Below are positions 1-8,558 of a DNA stretch of 8,558 nucleotides, one piece after another. How positions within the stretch are numbered: position 1 is the first letter of the stretch; the number at the start of each line of letters is the position of its first letter. The notes under the pieces were generated by a model that saw nothing but the letters and a program-made list of their open reading frames with translations, ran no database searches and had not been told where the DNA came from. Source of the stretch: Naegleria gruberi (lineage: Eukaryota); NCBI GenBank assembly GCA_000004985.1, contig GG739059.1. One strand, 5' to 3'. The position numbers and the translations under genes are program-made.

Positions 1-517
1 GTGACTTATATTACTAAATCTTGGATTACATACAATAAATAGAATGTTCACAATCAGATATTAGACAGTCGTTACTATTCTAAACATGTGTGACACACTA
101 TCATTACACTAAATGGTACTGTACGTGATCGTTTCAACTGTTTCCCAGCCCTATTTTAACTCTATAGAGAAACCAGTATGCGGCTTGTACCAGAATCTTT
201 GACTATTGGTTTGTATATATGCTATAGATAGTCTGTTGGGGCATACTTAAAAATATACTGTAAGTTTGTTTTTCGTATTTTAAGATGATGTTCATACTTA
301 CACTATCCTCGTCAATATTTTATGTTGACCAGTTGGCCCAATGTTTCTACTTACGTATTGTGGTTGAGAGATGAATATAACAGATCAATGACAAGAAGCT
401 TCATATAATGATACTCAAATAATAAATAGTTGATTTACAACAGCTGTTATGATATTATGGAACATTTGGTAGATTACGGTCATGGTTAATGCGAGAAAGG
501 CCATTGAAGCATTAATG

Positions 518-523
518 TTTATT
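518..523 (-). terminator. Putative polyadenylation signal (AATAAA on the minus strand, TTTATT on plus), 43-48 nt downstream of the TAA of the coiled-coil gene.
   Basis: Hexamer seen directly at the expected distance from the stop codon. There is no other support, and in AT-rich DNA such hexamers are frequent. Confidence 0.35.
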
Positions 524-565
524 CAATAAAATAGATTCAATTTTTGAAATATTTGTAATTAAAAA

Positions 566-2029
566 TTAACTCTTTTTTTTATTCAATGTACTACTTGGAC
601 TGTTATCACTCTGTGTTTGTTGACCAGGAGATGATTGATTAGACTTTGGAGATGATGTATCGGTAGGAGATAATGATAATGGTCTTAATTTTCTACTTCT
701 TGGTGATGATGATTGATTCTCATTGTCCATTGACGCTGTAAAAGTCATATTATTATTGGTCAATGTTTGATTATTAATACTACTACTGTTAGTAGGAGAA
801 GGTGAAGAATCTAATAATTTTCTTTCAATAAATTGTAATCTTTTTCTTGCTTGTTCTTCTCTAATTTTTAATTGATCAATTGATTTTTCTAAATGTCTTG
901 TTCTTTCAAAATCTCTTTCAATTTGAGTTTTTAAATGTTGTGAAACAATATCTTGTGATTGTTGTATTCTTGCATTTTGTACATATTCATATCCAATACG
1001 TTGTGATTTAATTTGATTTACAACTTGTTCTTTCATTTGTAATATTTGACGTTCTCTTTCATGAAATAAATTTTCATTGTAAACTTTTGAAGATTGTCTT
1101 TGTAATTGTTTTTGTTTTGCAAATTCATTCTTTTTAATTCTATTTTCTTCTTTTAATCTTTGATTTAATTCTTTAATTTCATTTCTTCTATTTGAATTAT
1201 ATTGTGTTAATTGATTTTTTTGATTTAAATGTAAATCTTTAAAAAAATCAATTCTCTTTCTAAATTCATTAGTTTCAATTTTCTTTTCCAATTCAAAATT
1301 TTTAATTCTTTCTTTAACATTTAATCTTGAATCTTTAATTGATGAAACTATTTGTGATTTTTCTTCTAATAATTTCATATCTAATTCTTTCCTTTTTTGT
1401 ACAAGTTCATTCATTGATTTTTTTAATTTTTTAGATTCTTCATGTTTTTGATTTAAAAAATCATTTTGTAATAATTTTGATCCTTTTCTCTTTTCTTCTT
1501 CTTCTAAAAATTTAATTCTAGATAATAATGATTGATAGGCTTTTTCTGCTTCTTTTTTACTTGTTTTAGTTTGTGATAGTTTTGTAAATGATGGTTCAAT
1601 TATATTATTACTACTACTTGTTAGTATATTCAGTGATGATGATGTATTATTATTTGTATTATTATTAGTATTATTATTGGATCGATTTGAAAATAAATTA
1701 GATGGATTATGTGATGATTTTCTAACAGGTGATAATGAAAATGATGGTTGAAATGATGAATTACTTGGTGATAATGATGAATATTGTTGTTGATGTTGTT
1801 GTTGTACAGAAGATGATGATGATGAATTGTATTGTTGACCTGGACTGAGTGGTGTCTTAATTGGTGAGAGAGCAATCTTTTGTTGTAATTGTAATTGAGG
1901 ATGATAATTTGAATGATTGGAATGATTTAAAGTATTATTATTATTGATATTATTATTATTAGGTGAATTTGGTGAATTTGTAACAACACCTACACCTGGA
2001 TGATGATTTAATGGAGTTGCAATTGTCAT
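566..2029 (-). CDS. Uncharacterized low-complexity coiled-coil protein (487 aa in window). N-terminal N/S/Q/H-rich region, central ~250-aa K/E/R/Q-rich heptad-like coiled-coil, C-terminal S/P/T/N-rich tail. TAA stop at 566-568. The 5' end may be incomplete because the frame stays open (QTEYNK-M) up to the N block 19 nt upstream of the ATG.
   Basis: A 488-codon stop-free frame in ~70% AT DNA is very unlikely by chance. Codon usage is consistent (AGA Arg, TTA Leu, CCA Pro, CAA Gln, AAT Asn). The ATG at 2029..2027 sits in an AACAAAATGA context. Composition changes from coding-like to non-coding immediately after the TAA. The translation reads as a classic coiled-coil (EEEEKRKG..LKKSMNELVQKRKELDMKLLEEK..) flanked by homopolymer tracts. 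No family-specific motif was recognised. Confidence 0.75.
   Translation of the reverse strand: MTIATPLNHHPGVGVVTNSPNSPNNNNINNNNTLNHSNHSNYHPQLQLQQKIALSPIKTPLSPGQQYNSSSSSSVQQQHQQQYSSLSPSNSSFQPSFSLSPVRKSSHNPSNLFSNRSNNNTNNNTNNNTSSSLNILTSSSNNIIEPSFTKLSQTKTSKKEAEKAYQSLLSRIKFLEEEEKRKGSKLLQNDFLNQKHEESKKLKKSMNELVQKRKELDMKLLEEKSQIVSSIKDSRLNVKERIKNFELEKKIETNEFRKRIDFFKDLHLNQKNQLTQYNSNRRNEIKELNQRLKEENRIKKNEFAKQKQLQRQSSKVYNENLFHERERQILQMKEQVVNQIKSQRIGYEYVQNARIQQSQDIVSQHLKTQIERDFERTRHLEKSIDQLKIREEQARKRLQFIERKLLDSSPSPTNSSSINNQTLTNNNMTFTASMDNENQSSSPRSRKLRPLSLSPTDTSSPKSNQSSPGQQTQSDNSPSSTLNKKKS
1631..1965 (-). repeat. Coding trinucleotide microsatellites inside the coiled-coil gene: (ATT/AAT)n around 1641-1680 and 1931-1965, (TTG/CAA)n 1785-1806, (GAT/ATC)n 1812-1824. 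They encode poly-Asn, poly-Gln and poly-Ser runs.
   Basis: Visible tandem 3-nt periodicity in the sequence. The translated protein shows NNNNINNNN, QQQHQQQ and SSSSSS tracts. Confidence 0.7.
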
Positions 2030-2048
2030 TTTGTTATATTCTGTTTGA

Positions 2049-5000
2049 NNNNNNNNNNNNNNNNNNNNNNNNNNNNNNNNNNNNNNNNNNNNNNNNNNNN
2101 NNNNNNNNNNNNNNNNNNNNNNNNNNNNNNNNNNNNNNNNNNNNNNNNNNNNNNNNNNNNNNNNNNNNNNNNNNNNNNNNNNNNNNNNNNNNNNNNNNNN
2201 NNNNNNNNNNNNNNNNNNNNNNNNNNNNNNNNNNNNNNNNNNNNNNNNNNNNNNNNNNNNNNNNNNNNNNNNNNNNNNNNNNNNNNNNNNNNNNNNNNNN
2301 NNNNNNNNNNNNNNNNNNNNNNNNNNNNNNNNNNNNNNNNNNNNNNNNNNNNNNNNNNNNNNNNNNNNNNNNNNNNNNNNNNNNNNNNNNNNNNNNNNNN
2401 NNNNNNNNNNNNNNNNNNNNNNNNNNNNNNNNNNNNNNNNNNNNNNNNNNNNNNNNNNNNNNNNNNNNNNNNNNNNNNNNNNNNNNNNNNNNNNNNNNNN
2501 NNNNNNNNNNNNNNNNNNNNNNNNNNNNNNNNNNNNNNNNNNNNNNNNNNNNNNNNNNNNNNNNNNNNNNNNNNNNNNNNNNNNNNNNNNNNNNNNNNNN
2601 NNNNNNNNNNNNNNNNNNNNNNNNNNNNNNNNNNNNNNNNNNNNNNNNNNNNNNNNNNNNNNNNNNNNNNNNNNNNNNNNNNNNNNNNNNNNNNNNNNNN
2701 NNNNNNNNNNNNNNNNNNNNNNNNNNNNNNNNNNNNNNNNNNNNNNNNNNNNNNNNNNNNNNNNNNNNNNNNNNNNNNNNNNNNNNNNNNNNNNNNNNNN
2801 NNNNNNNNNNNNNNNNNNNNNNNNNNNNNNNNNNNNNNNNNNNNNNNNNNNNNNNNNNNNNNNNNNNNNNNNNNNNNNNNNNNNNNNNNNNNNNNNNNNN
2901 NNNNNNNNNNNNNNNNNNNNNNNNNNNNNNNNNNNNNNNNNNNNNNNNNNNNNNNNNNNNNNNNNNNNNNNNNNNNNNNNNNNNNNNNNNNNNNNNNNNN
3001 NNNNNNNNNNNNNNNNNNNNNNNNNNNNNNNNNNNNNNNNNNNNNNNNNNNNNNNNNNNNNNNNNNNNNNNNNNNNNNNNNNNNNNNNNNNNNNNNNNNN
3101 NNNNNNNNNNNNNNNNNNNNNNNNNNNNNNNNNNNNNNNNNNNNNNNNNNNNNNNNNNNNNNNNNNNNNNNNNNNNNNNNNNNNNNNNNNNNNNNNNNNN
3201 NNNNNNNNNNNNNNNNNNNNNNNNNNNNNNNNNNNNNNNNNNNNNNNNNNNNNNNNNNNNNNNNNNNNNNNNNNNNNNNNNNNNNNNNNNNNNNNNNNNN
3301 NNNNNNNNNNNNNNNNNNNNNNNNNNNNNNNNNNNNNNNNNNNNNNNNNNNNNNNNNNNNNNNNNNNNNNNNNNNNNNNNNNNNNNNNNNNNNNNNNNNN
3401 NNNNNNNNNNNNNNNNNNNNNNNNNNNNNNNNNNNNNNNNNNNNNNNNNNNNNNNNNNNNNNNNNNNNNNNNNNNNNNNNNNNNNNNNNNNNNNNNNNNN
3501 NNNNNNNNNNNNNNNNNNNNNNNNNNNNNNNNNNNNNNNNNNNNNNNNNNNNNNNNNNNNNNNNNNNNNNNNNNNNNNNNNNNNNNNNNNNNNNNNNNNN
3601 NNNNNNNNNNNNNNNNNNNNNNNNNNNNNNNNNNNNNNNNNNNNNNNNNNNNNNNNNNNNNNNNNNNNNNNNNNNNNNNNNNNNNNNNNNNNNNNNNNNN
3701 NNNNNNNNNNNNNNNNNNNNNNNNNNNNNNNNNNNNNNNNNNNNNNNNNNNNNNNNNNNNNNNNNNNNNNNNNNNNNNNNNNNNNNNNNNNNNNNNNNNN
3801 NNNNNNNNNNNNNNNNNNNNNNNNNNNNNNNNNNNNNNNNNNNNNNNNNNNNNNNNNNNNNNNNNNNNNNNNNNNNNNNNNNNNNNNNNNNNNNNNNNNN
3901 NNNNNNNNNNNNNNNNNNNNNNNNNNNNNNNNNNNNNNNNNNNNNNNNNNNNNNNNNNNNNNNNNNNNNNNNNNNNNNNNNNNNNNNNNNNNNNNNNNNN
4001 NNNNNNNNNNNNNNNNNNNNNNNNNNNNNNNNNNNNNNNNNNNNNNNNNNNNNNNNNNNNNNNNNNNNNNNNNNNNNNNNNNNNNNNNNNNNNNNNNNNN
4101 NNNNNNNNNNNNNNNNNNNNNNNNNNNNNNNNNNNNNNNNNNNNNNNNNNNNNNNNNNNNNNNNNNNNNNNNNNNNNNNNNNNNNNNNNNNNNNNNNNNN
4201 NNNNNNNNNNNNNNNNNNNNNNNNNNNNNNNNNNNNNNNNNNNNNNNNNNNNNNNNNNNNNNNNNNNNNNNNNNNNNNNNNNNNNNNNNNNNNNNNNNNN
4301 NNNNNNNNNNNNNNNNNNNNNNNNNNNNNNNNNNNNNNNNNNNNNNNNNNNNNNNNNNNNNNNNNNNNNNNNNNNNNNNNNNNNNNNNNNNNNNNNNNNN
4401 NNNNNNNNNNNNNNNNNNNNNNNNNNNNNNNNNNNNNNNNNNNNNNNNNNNNNNNNNNNNNNNNNNNNNNNNNNNNNNNNNNNNNNNNNNNNNNNNNNNN
4501 NNNNNNNNNNNNNNNNNNNNNNNNNNNNNNNNNNNNNNNNNNNNNNNNNNNNNNNNNNNNNNNNNNNNNNNNNNNNNNNNNNNNNNNNNNNNNNNNNNNN
4601 NNNNNNNNNNNNNNNNNNNNNNNNNNNNNNNNNNNNNNNNNNNNNNNNNNNNNNNNNNNNNNNNNNNNNNNNNNNNNNNNNNNNNNNNNNNNNNNNNNNN
4701 NNNNNNNNNNNNNNNNNNNNNNNNNNNNNNNNNNNNNNNNNNNNNNNNNNNNNNNNNNNNNNNNNNNNNNNNNNNNNNNNNNNNNNNNNNNNNNNNNNNN
4801 NNNNNNNNNNNNNNNNNNNNNNNNNNNNNNNNNNNNNNNNNNNNNNNNNNNNNNNNNNNNNNNNNNNNNNNNNNNNNNNNNNNNNNNNNNNNNNNNNNNN
4901 NNNNNNNNNNNNNNNNNNNNNNNNNNNNNNNNNNNNNNNNNNNNNNNNNNNNNNNNNNNNNNNNNNNNNNNNNNNNNNNNNNNNNNNNNNNNNNNNNNNN

Positions 5001-7198
5001 NNNNNNNNNNNNNNNNNNNNNNNNNNNNNNNNNNNNNNNNNNNNNNNNNNNNNNNNNNNNNNNNNNNNNNNNNNNNNNNNNNNNNNNNNNNNNNNNNNNN
5101 NNNNNNNNNNNNNNNNNNNNNNNNNNNNNNNNNNNNNNNNNNNNNNNNNNNNNNNNNNNNNNNNNNNNNNNNNNNNNNNNNNNNNNNNNNNNNNNNNNNN
5201 NNNNNNNNNNNNNNNNNNNNNNNNNNNNNNNNNNNNNNNNNNNNNNNNNNNNNNNNNNNNNNNNNNNNNNNNNNNNNNNNNNNNNNNNNNNNNNNNNNNN
5301 NNNNNNNNNNNNNNNNNNNNNNNNNNNNNNNNNNNNNNNNNNNNNNNNNNNNNNNNNNNNNNNNNNNNNNNNNNNNNNNNNNNNNNNNNNNNNNNNNNNN
5401 NNNNNNNNNNNNNNNNNNNNNNNNNNNNNNNNNNNNNNNNNNNNNNNNNNNNNNNNNNNNNNNNNNNNNNNNNNNNNNNNNNNNNNNNNNNNNNNNNNNN
5501 NNNNNNNNNNNNNNNNNNNNNNNNNNNNNNNNNNNNNNNNNNNNNNNNNNNNNNNNNNNNNNNNNNNNNNNNNNNNNNNNNNNNNNNNNNNNNNNNNNNN
5601 NNNNNNNNNNNNNNNNNNNNNNNNNNNNNNNNNNNNNNNNNNNNNNNNNNNNNNNNNNNNNNNNNNNNNNNNNNNNNNNNNNNNNNNNNNNNNNNNNNNN
5701 NNNNNNNNNNNNNNNNNNNNNNNNNNNNNNNNNNNNNNNNNNNNNNNNNNNNNNNNNNNNNNNNNNNNNNNNNNNNNNNNNNNNNNNNNNNNNNNNNNNN
5801 NNNNNNNNNNNNNNNNNNNNNNNNNNNNNNNNNNNNNNNNNNNNNNNNNNNNNNNNNNNNNNNNNNNNNNNNNNNNNNNNNNNNNNNNNNNNNNNNNNNN
5901 NNNNNNNNNNNNNNNNNNNNNNNNNNNNNNNNNNNNNNNNNNNNNNNNNNNNNNNNNNNNNNNNNNNNNNNNNNNNNNNNNNNNNNNNNNNNNNNNNNNN
6001 NNNNNNNNNNNNNNNNNNNNNNNNNNNNNNNNNNNNNNNNNNNNNNNNNNNNNNNNNNNNNNNNNNNNNNNNNNNNNNNNNNNNNNNNNNNNNNNNNNNN
6101 NNNNNNNNNNNNNNNNNNNNNNNNNNNNNNNNNNNNNNNNNNNNNNNNNNNNNNNNNNNNNNNNNNNNNNNNNNNNNNNNNNNNNNNNNNNNNNNNNNNN
6201 NNNNNNNNNNNNNNNNNNNNNNNNNNNNNNNNNNNNNNNNNNNNNNNNNNNNNNNNNNNNNNNNNNNNNNNNNNNNNNNNNNNNNNNNNNNNNNNNNNNN
6301 NNNNNNNNNNNNNNNNNNNNNNNNNNNNNNNNNNNNNNNNNNNNNNNNNNNNNNNNNNNNNNNNNNNNNNNNNNNNNNNNNNNNNNNNNNNNNNNNNNNN
6401 NNNNNNNNNNNNNNNNNNNNNNNNNNNNNNNNNNNNNNNNNNNNNNNNNNNNNNNNNNNNNNNNNNNNNNNNNNNNNNNNNNNNNNNNNNNNNNNNNNNN
6501 NNNNNNNNNNNNNNNNNNNNNNNNNNNNNNNNNNNNNNNNNNNNNNNNNNNNNNNNNNNNNNNNNNNNNNNNNNNNNNNNNNNNNNNNNNNNNNNNNNNN
6601 NNNNNNNNNNNNNNNNNNNNNNNNNNNNNNNNNNNNNNNNNNNNNNNNNNNNNNNNNNNNNNNNNNNNNNNNNNNNNNNNNNNNNNNNNNNNNNNNNNNN
6701 NNNNNNNNNNNNNNNNNNNNNNNNNNNNNNNNNNNNNNNNNNNNNNNNNNNNNNNNNNNNNNNNNNNNNNNNNNNNNNNNNNNNNNNNNNNNNNNNNNNN
6801 NNNNNNNNNNNNNNNNNNNNNNNNNNNNNNNNNNNNNNNNNNNNNNNNNNNNNNNNNNNNNNNNNNNNNNNNNNNNNNNNNNNNNNNNNNNNNNNNNNNN
6901 NNNNNNNNNNNNNNNNNNNNNNNNNNNNNNNNNNNNNNNNNNNNNNNNNNNNNNNNNNNNNNNNNNNNNNNNNNNNNNNNNNNNNNNNNNNNNNNNNNNN
7001 NNNNNNNNNNNNNNNNNNNNNNNNNNNNNNNNNNNNNNNNNNNNNNNNNNNNNNNNNNNNNNNNNNNNNNNNNNNNNNNNNNNNNNNNNNNNNNNNNNNN
7101 NNNNNNNNNNNNNNNNNNNNNNNNNNNNNNNNNNNNNNNNNNNNNNNNNNNNNNNNNNNNNNNNNNNNNNNNNNNNNNNNNNNNNNNNNNNNNNNNNN
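2049..7198. other. 5,150-nt run of N: an assembly gap or hard-masked sequence. It contains no readable information. Every ORF-track entry that is mostly 'X' is an artefact of translating through it.
   Basis: Direct: uninterrupted n from 2049 to 7198. Real sequence resumes at 7199 inside a (TGA)n microsatellite. Confidence 0.98.
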
Positions 7199-7551
7199 AG
7201 TAGTGATGATGATGATGATGGTGATGTGGTGGTGTTAATAGTGCCACTATCTGATAGTAATATAACTACTTTTGAATGAGTTTCAGCAATTCTTTTAAAT
7301 TTAATTTCCTCCCAGAATGGTATTTCCTCCCATTTCAAAATTCCTTGAGCAAACATGAAGAATGTAGTAACAATTGAAAATATAGAAATTGCTATGGTTA
7401 TGAGAATTTGTAATTTAGAGGTAGTAGAAGATGATGGATTGTAGAAATTATTGTCATCATCATAATGATGGTTATGACTTTTGTCATCTATTGTCATGGA
7501 AAATAATTTGGAAAATTGTAGAGTCAATCGATAAATCATTGTTGTTTGCAT
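7199..7551 (-). CDS. 5' part of a minus-strand gene (117 codons visible, continuing into the N block). Predicted single-pass, signal-anchor (type II-like) membrane protein: ~45-aa polar N-terminus, one TM helix (KLQILITIAISIFSIVTTFFMFAQGIL, nt ~7342-7413), then KWEEIPFWEEIKFKRIAETHSKVVILLSDSG... and a Ser/Thr-rich linker.
   Basis: First in-frame ATG at 7551..7549. Upstream in this frame there is no ATG before the stop at ~7648. The frame is stop-free down to the mask. There is a clear 25-residue hydrophobic segment preceded by charged residues. Codon usage matches the other genes. Product family unknown because the domain is hidden in the mask. Confidence 0.55.
7201..7234. repeat. (TGA)5 then TGG/TGA/TGT/GGT/GGT imperfect trinucleotide microsatellite immediately abutting the N block. 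It encodes a Ser run (SPSSSSSL) in the minus-strand gene.
   Basis: Direct: tagtgatgatgatgatgatggtgatgtggtggtg. Its position at the mask edge suggests the mask or gap may be repeat-related. Confidence 0.7.
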
Positions 7552-7772
7552 GTTGAGGAGATGAGATGTATTCTCATTATTTAATGTATTTTTTTTCTGT
7601 TTCGCTAAACAAATTGATAAAAAGAGTAACCCATTTCTTAATACTATTCACTATTTAATAACTTTTAAAGATTCATTGTCAATTTTATTTTAAAAATGGA
7701 CGCACAGTTTGCTCACAAAGGCTAACGAACAAATTTGGTTGTTTCATCTCTCTCATAAAAACAATTGCTGTG
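7552..7772. promoter_or_regulatory. Putative bidirectional promoter and 5'UTR region (221 bp) between divergent start codons (minus gene ATG 7551, plus gene ATG 7773). Contains an A/T-rich TATA-like element TATTTTAAAAAT at ~7686-7697, about 75 nt upstream of the plus-gene ATG.
   Basis: Divergent head-to-head arrangement seen directly. The region is non-coding in all frames and AT-rich (~70%). Element calls are motif-level only. Confidence 0.4.
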
Positions 7773-8558
7773 ATGATAACACTTGCCACCAGTTGGATTT
7801 TCTCCTTTGTATTTGTGCAGGCATTTCAATTCTTTTGTCCATCATCATCACAACATTATCAAGATGAAGGAAAACAACAACCAACATCATCATCAATAGA
7901 AAAACAGGAATATGAAGGAAATAGTAATCATCTTCATGCAAATTCCGATGATTCGGCCAACAATGAACTTTATGAACAAGTAGTTGCACTTCCTCTGACA
8001 CAACAACAACAACACTTGAATAGAAGAAGTGTTTTTTCCTCATATGTATCGAGTGATGGTGGTATAACAATGATTACTACTAAGAATAATGAACATCTAC
8101 TTCACCGTATTTCATTGAGGGAGTTATATAGTAATTTATTTTCAAAATTCAATGTGTTAATCACAAATTTAGGAATTTTAGGTGGAATTTTATTACTAGT
8201 GTATTTAGGTCATACAAAAAATCCACTCCTATTCGAAACTACTGAAAAGGTCTATTCTAGGGATTTATTTATTTCAATTTGTGTTGCATCTTTAATTTGT
8301 GGAATTTTAACATTGACAAGGAATAGTGATGAAACAGTTGAAACAATTTTATCAAGAGAACAATCAGAAGAGTGGAAAGGATGGATGCAACTTATTTTTC
8401 TACTCTATCACTACTATAATGTACAAGAAATTTATGCTCCAATTAGGTTATTTGTTAGTTGCTATGTCTGGATGTCAGGATTTGGGAATTTTTCATATTT
8501 TTATAATAGTAAGGGAGATTTATCCTTAAAAAGATTTTACAAATGTTGTGGAGATTAA
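7773..8558 (+). CDS. Cas1p-like / RWA-like (CASD1 family, 10-TM acyltransferase-3-like) polysaccharide/glycan O-acetyltransferase. N-terminal 261 aa are followed by a TAA at 8556-8558, the last codon of the window. The expected rest of the multi-TM domain is not present in this frame.
   Basis: Translation contains the signature block LSREQSEEWKGWMQLIFLLYHYYNVQEIYAPIRLFVSCYVWMSGFGNFSYFYNSKGDLSLKRF (EWKGWMQ at 8370-8390, YVWMSGFGNFSY at 8463-8498). From memory this matches the conserved region of plant REDUCED WALL ACETYLATION proteins, human CASD1 and Cryptococcus Cas1p (..QTEEWKGWMQ..YHY..YVWMTGFGNFSYYY..KDFSLARF..). Before it are two predicted TM helices (VLITNLGILGGILLLVYLG, LFISICVASLICGILTLT) and an N-terminal hydrophobic segment, as in RWA proteins. 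The true start is ATG 7773; the track's 7770 is GTG, which is not a eukaryotic start. Confidence 0.8.
   Translation: MITLATSWIFSFVFVQAFQFFCPSSSQHYQDEGKQQPTSSSIEKQEYEGNSNHLHANSDDSANNELYEQVVALPLTQQQQHLNRRSVFSSYVSSDGGITMITTKNNEHLLHRISLRELYSNLFSKFNVLITNLGILGGILLLVYLGHTKNPLLFETTEKVYSRDLFISICVASLICGILTLTRNSDETVETILSREQSEEWKGWMQLIFLLYHYYNVQEIYAPIRLFVSCYVWMSGFGNFSYFYNSKGDLSLKRFYKCCGD

What the first reader, a model, noticed from the sequence alone, without database searches (positions are those of the whole stretch)
2049..7198. 5.15 kb of masked sequence hides most of a large minus-strand locus
On the minus strand, a gene starts at 7551 and runs into the N block. At the other side, the coiled-coil ORF (566..2029) has its frame still open where it meets the N block, with only 19 nt between its first ATG and the mask. 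So the masked region contains at least the body of the membrane-anchored gene, plus either the 5' end and promoter of the coiled-coil gene or sequence joining the two into one large gene. If the N length is exact, the two visible pieces are in different frames ((7551-2029) mod 3 = 2), so a single gene would need at least one intron or frameshift. Otherwise there are two genes. The mask edge sits in a (TGA)n microsatellite, so the hidden region may be highly repetitive, low-complexity coding sequence, which would explain masking or assembly failure. Nothing else can be said about its content from here.
Basis: seen in the sequence. Interest (0 to 1): 0.6.

Follow-up and report, generated by a model that had tools for sequence, protein, structure and literature searches.

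The report
N-filled gap over ordinary Naegleria genes
The 5.15 kb of N is a data artefact (a scaffold gap or a mask) in DNA of a Naegleria amoeba; it most likely hides the rest of an ordinary ~713-residue membrane-anchored enzyme gene plus about 3 kb of unknown sequence, not one giant gene.

Summary
Bases 2049-7198 are one unbroken run of 5150 N. A 117-codon minus-strand ORF (from ATG 7551) runs into it. A 487-codon coiled-coil ORF (566-2029) starts 19 nt below it.

The "one large locus" reading is not supported. The 117-residue fragment has one relative among 1.84 billion representative proteins: Naegleria gruberi NAEGRDRAFT_59024 (713 aa, 89-93% identical). This identifies the window as gruberi-lineage Naegleria DNA.

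The gene entering the mask should therefore need only about 1.8 kb of it, plus any introns. About 3.3 kb is unaccounted for, if the N length is real.

The orthologue's hidden part is normal-complexity sequence. It ends in a probable PC-esterase/SGNH-like domain (GDS and DxxH motifs, sub-threshold Pfam NXPE4_C).

The only homologue of the coiled-coil gene lies on a Logan contig and is a separate gene with an unrelated, divergently transcribed upstream neighbour. The six open codons above ATG 2029 are expected by chance 58% of the time.

The best reading is two or more separate ordinary genes. I could not retrieve the hidden bases, and I cannot tell whether the N length is exact. Interest is low.

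One side note: the membrane-anchored gene sits head-to-head with a Cas1-type acyltransferase-only gene. This may be a "split Cas1p" pair.

The parts
2049..7198 (.). Unbroken run of 5150 N (scaffold gap of estimated size, or a deliberate mask). It contains no biological information.
   Evidence: regex over the window
7199..7551 (-). First 117 codons of a membrane-anchored protein gene. It has a short N-terminal region, one hydrophobic helix (about residues 47-72) and a Ser/Thr tract. It is the orthologue of N. gruberi NAEGRDRAFT_59024 (713 aa).
   Evidence: open frame, GC3 bias; E 1.6e-52, 93% id; 89% id over 105 aa; identity of the hit
7204..7226 (.). (TGA)n microsatellite, 7.7 copies. On the minus strand it reads (TCA)n and encodes the Ser run at the end of the visible fragment.
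   Evidence: translation
566..2029 (-). Complete-looking 487-codon gene. It has a disordered low-complexity N-terminus, one long helix (residues 158-406) and a disordered C-terminus. No Pfam family matches it.
   Evidence: homologue P0001/L001; GC3 = 0.07
2030..2048 (-). 19 nt upstream of ATG 2029 (minus strand ..CAAACAGAATATAACAAA ATG). Probably 5' leader. The open frame here is uninformative.
518..523 (-). AATAAA on the minus strand, 43 nt downstream of the coiled-coil stop codon. Candidate polyadenylation signal. Positions 1-565 have no long open frame in any of the six frames.
7552..7772 (.). 221-bp head-to-head intergenic region between the membrane-anchored gene (minus) and the Cas1-type acyltransferase gene (plus).
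7773..8558 (+). 5' part of a Cas1_AcylT (10-TM acyltransferase) gene. Only 111 residues precede the domain, so it has no N-terminal esterase domain. The ORF closes with TAA in the last three bases of the window, although only profile positions 54-197 of 482 are covered.
   Evidence: PF07779, 95.6 bits, cut-off 27.3; 78 homologues, all carrying PF07779

Best explanation
The N run is a non-biological placeholder lying over two or more separate, ordinary protein-coding genes of a Naegleria amoeba of the gruberi lineage. It is most likely a size-estimated scaffold gap; otherwise it is a mask.

1. The minus-strand gene starting at 7551 is the orthologue of N. gruberi NAEGRDRAFT_59024, a 713-residue single-pass membrane protein. 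Its C-terminal third looks like a PC-esterase/SGNH-type acyl-esterase or transferase domain. By inference, it ends with its own stop codon about 1.8 kb into the N run, near 5390-5410 if it has no introns.
2. If the N count is accurate, about 3.3 kb remains. At Naegleria gene density (about 2.5 kb per gene) this would hold intergenic DNA and probably one more gene. This step is inferred and not testable here.
3. The coiled-coil gene is a separate transcription unit whose start codon is most likely the visible ATG at 2029. Its promoter lies in the hidden DNA.

Shown: the N run, both open frames, the orthology and the orthologue's length and motifs. Inferred: where the hidden gene ends, what fills the rest, and the nature of the N run.
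For: - N run exact at 2049-7198.
- The 117-aa fragment has a single hit among 1.84 billion representatives: P0080, 713 aa, E 1.6e-52, 93% identity over query residues 4-113, and 89% over 105 aa by BLASTP.
- P0080 is NAEGRDRAFT_59024 / XP_002673220.1 / D2VRK2 of N. gruberi, on a 342-kb scaffold.
- P0080 carries GDS at 484 and DxxH at 689, 25 residues from its C-terminus. This placement matches the catalytic triad of the PC-esterase family, which is reported in N. gruberi (PMC2824669). The protein therefore looks complete at its C-terminus.
- There is a weak Pfam NXPE4_C hit at residues 468-579, E 4e-4.
- Residues beyond the visible part number 601, equal to 1806 nt, which leaves 3344 nt of the mask.
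- N. gruberi has 40.9 Mb, 16,620 genes and a mean gene length of 1,677 bp (PMC9928731).
- The coiled-coil homologue P0001 on L001 has an unrelated neighbour on the opposite strand only about 220-500 nt upstream.
- The context of ATG 2029 is AACAAA ATG. The six open codons above it have a 0.58 probability of arising by chance.
- The window has eukaryotic features: AT-rich third positions and low-complexity tracts. The homologue's contig L001 carries a GT..AG intron.
Against: - The hidden bases could not be retrieved from any collection. The end of the upstream gene and the content of the remaining ~3.3 kb are therefore inferred from an orthologue, not seen.
- P0080 is itself a computational gene model.
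- The window differs from P0080 by 7-11% with indels, so it is another allele, strain or sister species, and its gene structure could differ.
- On L001 the start of the coiled-coil homologue is ambiguous: in-frame ATGs lie at 3873 and 4146. A short additional 5' coding stretch inside the mask cannot be excluded.
- L001 shares no synteny with the window on the upstream side, so it says nothing about what precedes the gene in Naegleria.
Confidence: 0.75

Rival explanations
1. One large gene. The membrane-anchor exon at 7551 and the coiled-coil ORF are parts of a single transcript of more than 2,300 codons, joined through hidden exons with at least one intron or frameshift.
For: - Both lie on the minus strand.
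- The coiled-coil frame is open up to the mask.
- Introns occur in this lineage (for L001).
Against: - The orthologue of the upstream gene is 713 aa, with its catalytic DxxH 25 residues from the end.
- The coiled-coil homologue elsewhere stands alone next to a divergent, unrelated gene.
- The open stretch is only 6 codons, with a chance probability of 0.58.
- The two frames differ (7551-2029 mod 3 = 2).
Confidence: 0.03
2. Two genes, but the coiled-coil gene begins inside the mask. ATG 2029 would be internal, and one further 5' coding stretch or exon would be hidden.
For: - The frame is open to the mask edge.
- In L001 the homologous frame is open 273 nt upstream of the Met that aligns with ours, with an earlier in-frame ATG at 3873.
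Against: - The extra 91 residues in L001 are unlike the rest of the protein, and an equally long ORF overlaps them on the opposite strand, so they may be non-coding.
- Both proteins read 'MT' followed by a Ser/Asn/Pro-rich tract at the proposed start.
- The A-rich context before ATG 2029 fits a start codon.
Confidence: 0.17
3. The N run marks a real hard-to-assemble element (transposon, tandem repeat or endogenous viral insertion) lying between the two genes. The hidden content would then be unusual rather than ordinary.
For: - The right edge is 5 nt from a (TGA)n array.
- About 3.3 kb is unaccounted for after subtracting the orthologue's length.
- Published Naegleria single-cell assemblies report 7-8% repeats (PMC12482156).
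Against: - The left edge is unique sequence.
- Trinucleotide arrays are common throughout the visible coding sequence.
- The first ~1.8 kb hidden is predicted to be normal-complexity coding sequence.
- Nothing observed points to any particular element.
Confidence: 0.15

Closest known systems
Naegleria gruberi NAEGRDRAFT_59024 (XP_002673220.1, UniProt D2VRK2), annotated hypothetical protein
   Same: The N-terminal 105-110 residues are 89-93% identical, including the membrane helix and the juxtamembrane 'KWEEIPFWEEIKFKRIAETHSKVVILLSD' stretch. It is the only relative found.
   Different: - It is not identical: there are substitutions and two 3-residue indels in the low-complexity parts. The window is therefore another allele, strain or sister species.
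- Residues 113-713 cannot be compared because they are under the N run.
PC-esterase family (Pmr5/Cas1p N-terminal domain; plant TBL/DUF231, animal FAM55/NXPE, FAM113/PCED1; Anantharaman and Aravind 2010, PMC2824669)
   Same: The orthologue has GDS after a predicted strand, a His after the third strand (TFTFHEM), and DxxH just before the last helix. It has a beta-alpha repeat pattern, an N-terminal membrane anchor, and a weak NXPE4_C match. The family is reported in N. gruberi.
   Different: - The Pfam score (20.5 bits) is below the cut-off (27), and the PC-Esterase model itself gave no hit.
- The structure model is too poor to test the fold (pLDDT 37).
- About 350 residues between the anchor and this domain match nothing.
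Cas1p/CASD1 (fused esterase + 10-TM acyltransferase) and the plant RWA + TBL division of labour
   Same: The window encodes a Cas1_AcylT-only protein (RWA-like architecture). It lies head-to-head, 221 bp apart, with the putative PC-esterase-like membrane protein. Together these are the two halves of the Cas1p architecture (PMC2824669).
   Different: - Here the two halves are separate, divergently transcribed genes rather than one polypeptide.
- No functional link has been tested.
- The esterase assignment rests on the orthologue and is sub-threshold.
Size-estimated scaffold gaps in draft eukaryotic assemblies
   Same: - A run of N of non-round length (5150) joins two short contigs (2048 and 1360 bp).
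- The edge does not respect codon boundaries: 353 nt = 117 codons + 2.
- The total of 8558 bp resembles one large-insert clone span. This last point is my inference.
   Different: This cannot be distinguished here from a deliberate exact-length mask, because no assembly metadata are available.

Membership tests
PC-esterase / SGNH-like acyl-esterase family (for the gene entering the mask) | Serine nucleophile in a GDS motif directly after the first beta strand | tested here: inconclusive
   Present in the orthologue P0080 (FFGDSSV, GDS at 484, after predicted strand 479-483). The corresponding part of the window is under the N run and cannot be read.
PC-esterase / SGNH-like acyl-esterase family (for the gene entering the mask) | [quoted passage not shown] | tested here: inconclusive
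   Present in the orthologue (HTDGLHN, DxxH at 689, with the last predicted helix at 690-711). Hidden in the window.
PC-esterase / SGNH-like acyl-esterase family (for the gene entering the mask) | W/H replacing the Asn of GxND after strand 3, and absence of the canonical Gly and GxND blocks (PMC2824669) | tested here: inconclusive
   A His follows predicted strand 577-583 (VAVMTFTFHEM) and no GxND is seen. The strand assignment comes from a low-confidence model (pLDDT 37).
PC-esterase / SGNH-like acyl-esterase family (for the gene entering the mask) | Significant match to a curated family profile | tested here: not met
   The best Pfam match is NXPE4_C at 20.5 bits, E 4e-4, below the 27-bit cut-off. 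No PC-Esterase hit. No PDB sequence relative.
Cas1_AcylT 10-TM acyltransferase (neighbouring plus-strand gene) | Match to PF07779 above the gathering score | tested here: met
   95.6 bits against a cut-off of 27.3, E 4.2e-27, residues 112-258 on profile positions 54-197 of 482. All 78 homologues found carry PF07779.
Single large gene spanning 7551 to 566 | Continuous or spliceable reading frame, and orthologues of comparable length | tested here: not met
   The visible pieces are in different frames. The orthologue of the 5' piece is 713 aa and complete. The homologue of the 3' piece is a separate gene. Continuity itself cannot be tested under the N run.
Assembly gap versus exact-length mask | Assembly metadata (AGP file or gap feature), or an independent sequence spanning the interval | not testable with these tools
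   A 41-mer from the window is absent from the three DNA collections. No contig is on record for the window's ORF or for P0080.

The most novel reading that the evidence does not exclude
The ~3.3 kb of the N run not needed by the 59024 orthologue could hold something that really resists assembly, such as a mobile element or an endogenous viral fragment inserted between two host genes. Separately, the visible head-to-head pair may be a co-regulated 'split Cas1p' glycan O-acetylation module in a heterolobosean. It consists of a putative PC-esterase-like membrane protein and a Cas1-type acyltransferase-only protein, 221 bp apart.
Probability: 0.12. Interest if true: 0.35.

Novelty: not a real feature. 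Interest (0 to 1): 0.1.

Why it matters
It matters little. The N run is a property of the data, not of the organism, and the genes around it look ordinary for Naegleria.

The practical value of this check is threefold:
- It names the source lineage (Naegleria, gruberi group).
- It identifies the gene that enters the gap and predicts where that gene should end.
- It removes the idea of a giant repetitive gene.

The one small point of biological interest is the divergent pairing of a Cas1-type acyltransferase-only gene with a probable PC-esterase-like membrane protein. If confirmed, the two catalytic halves of Cas1p/CASD1 would be encoded as a co-regulated gene pair in an excavate. This would parallel the separate plant RWA and TBL proteins.

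Tried and rejected
**Recovering the hidden sequence: all attempts failed.**
- Exact 41-mer scans of genome contigs, viral contigs and metagenome contigs found nothing.
- Exact-product look-ups for the 487-aa ORF and for P0080 found nothing on record.
- Protein-seeded locus searches with P0080 in metagenome, genome and viral contigs, and with the coiled-coil ORF in viral contigs, found nothing.

**Word-indexed protein search.**
- It found nothing for the 117-aa fragment, although a 93% identical protein exists in the same collection.
- For that reason, I do not take the absence of N. gruberi hits as evidence that those orthologues are absent.

**Counting genes between the orthologues through AlphaFold-DB accession numbers.** The afdb50 library was unavailable.

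**Structure prediction.**
- P0080 without an alignment gave pLDDT 37, so I ran no fold search on it.
- The coiled-coil model is one long helix and says nothing about function.

**Family and RNA scans.**
- Pfam found nothing for the coiled-coil ORF, the 117-aa fragment, or the L001 neighbours.
- No tRNA and no Rfam family was found in the visible DNA.

**Literature.** Searches for SRR29240419 and NAEGRDRAFT_59024 found nothing.

**Rejected idea.** My first guess was a dictyostelid origin, from the poly-N/Q/S tracts. I dropped it after noting that the non-coding flank is GC-richer than coding third positions, and one search then named Naegleria.
Full report
**1. The observation**

The window contains one run of N, exactly 2049-7198, 5150 bases. 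The visible flanks are AT-rich: 26% GC on the left and 30% on the right.

On the minus strand an ORF starts at ATG 7551 and is still open when it meets the N run at 7199, after 117 codons plus 2 nt. It looks coding for three reasons:
- A frame of this composition stays open that long with p of about 2e-4.
- Third-position GC (0.23) is below first and second positions (0.30, 0.38).
- All five other frames are full of stops.

The fragment contains one hydrophobic helix at about residues 47-72 and ends in a Ser/Thr tract.

On the other side, the minus-strand ORF 566-2029 encodes 487 residues. The 19 nt between its ATG and the N run contain no stop in its frame (QTEYNK).

Two qualifications apply:
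- Six open codons are expected by chance 58% of the time at this composition, so "frame still open" carries no weight.
- The (TGA)n array (7204-7226) lies next to the right edge only. The left edge is unique sequence. Five further trinucleotide arrays occur in the visible 3.4 kb.

**2. Where the DNA comes from**

The plus-strand gene from ATG 7773 to the end of the window is a Cas1-type 10-TM acyltransferase (PF07779, 95.6 bits).

The sequence is eukaryotic in style. It has low-complexity N/Q/S/H tracts, and third-position GC in the coiled-coil gene is as low as 0.07.

An exhaustive HMMER search of 1.84 billion representative proteins with the 117-residue fragment returned exactly one hit: P0080, 713 aa, E 1.6e-52, 93% identity over residues 4-113. 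BLASTP gives 89% over 105 residues with two short indels.

P0080 is the Naegleria gruberi hypothetical protein NAEGRDRAFT_59024 (XP_002673220.1, EFC40476.1, UniProt D2VRK2), on a 342-kb scaffold. The window is therefore Naegleria DNA of the gruberi lineage. It is not the reference allele itself. It could be another haplotype, another strain or a sister species such as N. clarki. The literature places N. clarki as sister to N. gruberi (PMC12482156).

The word-indexed protein search had missed this hit. For that reason I do not read the lack of N. gruberi hits for the other two genes as absence.

**3. What the N run hides: the part that can be inferred**

The orthologue is 713 residues, and the visible fragment corresponds to its first ~112. 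The remaining 601 codons plus the stop need about 1.8 kb, more if there are introns.

The orthologue looks complete at its C-terminus. It has a GDS motif at 484 directly after a predicted strand and a DxxH motif at 689, just before the last predicted helix and 25 residues from the end. This placement matches the catalytic triad of the PC-esterase branch of SGNH-like enzymes, defined from the N-terminal domain of Cas1p and reported in N. gruberi (PMC2824669).

Pfam gives a weak match to NXPE4_C, the FAM55/NXPE member of that family: E 4e-4, 20.5 bits, below the 27-bit cut-off. No PDB relative was found by sequence. The single-sequence structure model was too poor (pLDDT 37) for a fold search. 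I therefore treat "PC-esterase-like" as probable but unproven.

Only 8% of the orthologue's hidden 601 residues are low complexity by a simple entropy measure. The figure is 58% for the visible coiled-coil ORF.

**4. What the N run hides: the part that cannot be inferred**

If 5150 is the true length, about 3.3 kb remains between the predicted stop of the 59024 orthologue (near 5400) and position 2049.

N. gruberi has about one gene per 2.5 kb and a mean gene length of 1.7 kb (PMC9928731). The remainder is therefore too long for a typical intergenic spacer and would fit one more gene plus spacers. It could also be a mobile element, or the N count could simply be an overestimate. I found no way to see these bases. 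The AlphaFold-DB route to neighbouring accession numbers was closed.

**5. One gene or several**

The coiled-coil ORF has a single detectable homologue among 5.8 billion clusters: P0001, 41% identity. It lies on a 5.3-kb Logan contig, L001, from run SRR29240419.

tblastn shows that the conserved part continues after a 55-nt GT..AG intron in L001 that the window lacks. The C-terminal helical region is about 55% identical.

In L001 the gene is preceded, about 220-500 nt upstream, by a 1216-codon gene on the opposite strand. That gene is unrelated to P0080 and matches no Pfam family. There the coiled-coil gene is a stand-alone unit.

Its N-terminus in L001 is ambiguous, with in-frame ATGs at 3873 and 4146. 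The second gives "MTLLNSS...", which resembles "MTIATPLN..." at 2029 in the window. A short hidden 5' extension therefore cannot be excluded (I give it about 0.17).

A fusion with the membrane-anchored gene is very unlikely (about 0.03), for three reasons: the upstream orthologue is complete, the frames differ, and the only homologue stands alone.

Downstream of the coiled-coil stop, an AATAAA lies 43 nt away on the minus strand, and no frame is open in 1-565. This fits a 3' end.

The predicted structure of the coiled-coil protein is one long helix (158-406) with disordered ends. Its function remains unknown and is not the subject of the finding.

**6. Nature of the N run**

The edges do not respect codon boundaries (117 codons + 2 nt) or any visible feature. 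The length is not a round number. The run joins two short pieces of 2048 and 1360 bp, for a total of 8558 bp.

This is what a small scaffold held together by large-insert mate pairs looks like, with a gap filled to its estimated size. That reading is my inference, and I could not test it. An exact-length mask applied by whoever prepared the data would look the same.

If it is exact, the argument is still weak because introns occur in this lineage.

**7. Comparison with known things, and verdict**

Nothing here departs from known biology. The gene entering the gap is an orthologue of an annotated hypothetical protein and a probable member of a described enzyme family. The neighbour is a clear Cas1_AcylT member. 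The N run is an artefact of representation.

The one mildly interesting point lies outside the finding. The Cas1-type gene has only 111 residues before its acyltransferase domain, so it has no esterase domain. It lies head-to-head, 221 bp apart, with the putative PC-esterase-like gene. Together these would be the two halves of the Cas1p/CASD1 architecture, encoded as a divergent pair. Plants split the same activities between RWA and TBL proteins (family background from PMC2824669). This rests on a sub-threshold domain call in an orthologue and is untested.

Noticed in passing
window 7199-7551 (-) and 7773-8558 (+), spacer 7552-7772: A Cas1_AcylT-only gene and the putative PC-esterase-like membrane protein gene are divergently transcribed from a shared 221-bp spacer. 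Together they make up the two domains that are fused in Cas1p/CASD1, so this may be a co-regulated 'split Cas1p' pair.
   Followed up: partly
window 8556-8558: The Cas1-type ORF closes with TAA in the last three bases of the window, although only profile positions 54-197 of 482 have been traversed and the match runs to residue 258 of 262. Either an intron starts in the last ~20 nt, or the end of the sequence is of low quality.
   Followed up: no
window 566-2029 (-); L001 3873-5269: The coiled-coil protein has only one detectable homologue in the 5.8-billion-cluster search (41% id, Logan run SRR29240419). That homologue carries a 55-nt GT..AG intron (L001 about 4720-4774) at a position where the window's gene is uninterrupted.
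   Followed up: partly
window 1-565 versus the coding regions: The non-coding flank (31-34% GC) is GC-richer than coding third positions: 7% in the coiled-coil gene and 20-23% in the other two. This is the opposite of the pattern in AT-rich dictyostelids (from my own knowledge), which the low-complexity tracts had first made me suspect.
   Followed up: no
(tool behaviour): The word-indexed protein search returned no hit for the 117-aa fragment. The exhaustive representative search found a 93% identical N. gruberi protein from the same collection. Negative results of the indexed search for the other two genes are therefore unreliable here.
   Followed up: yes
L001 3665-4189 (-) and 3873-4146 (+): Between the two divergent genes of L001, both strands carry long overlapping open frames (174 aa and about 91 aa) in a ~40% GC stretch. 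It is unclear whether either is coding.
   Followed up: no
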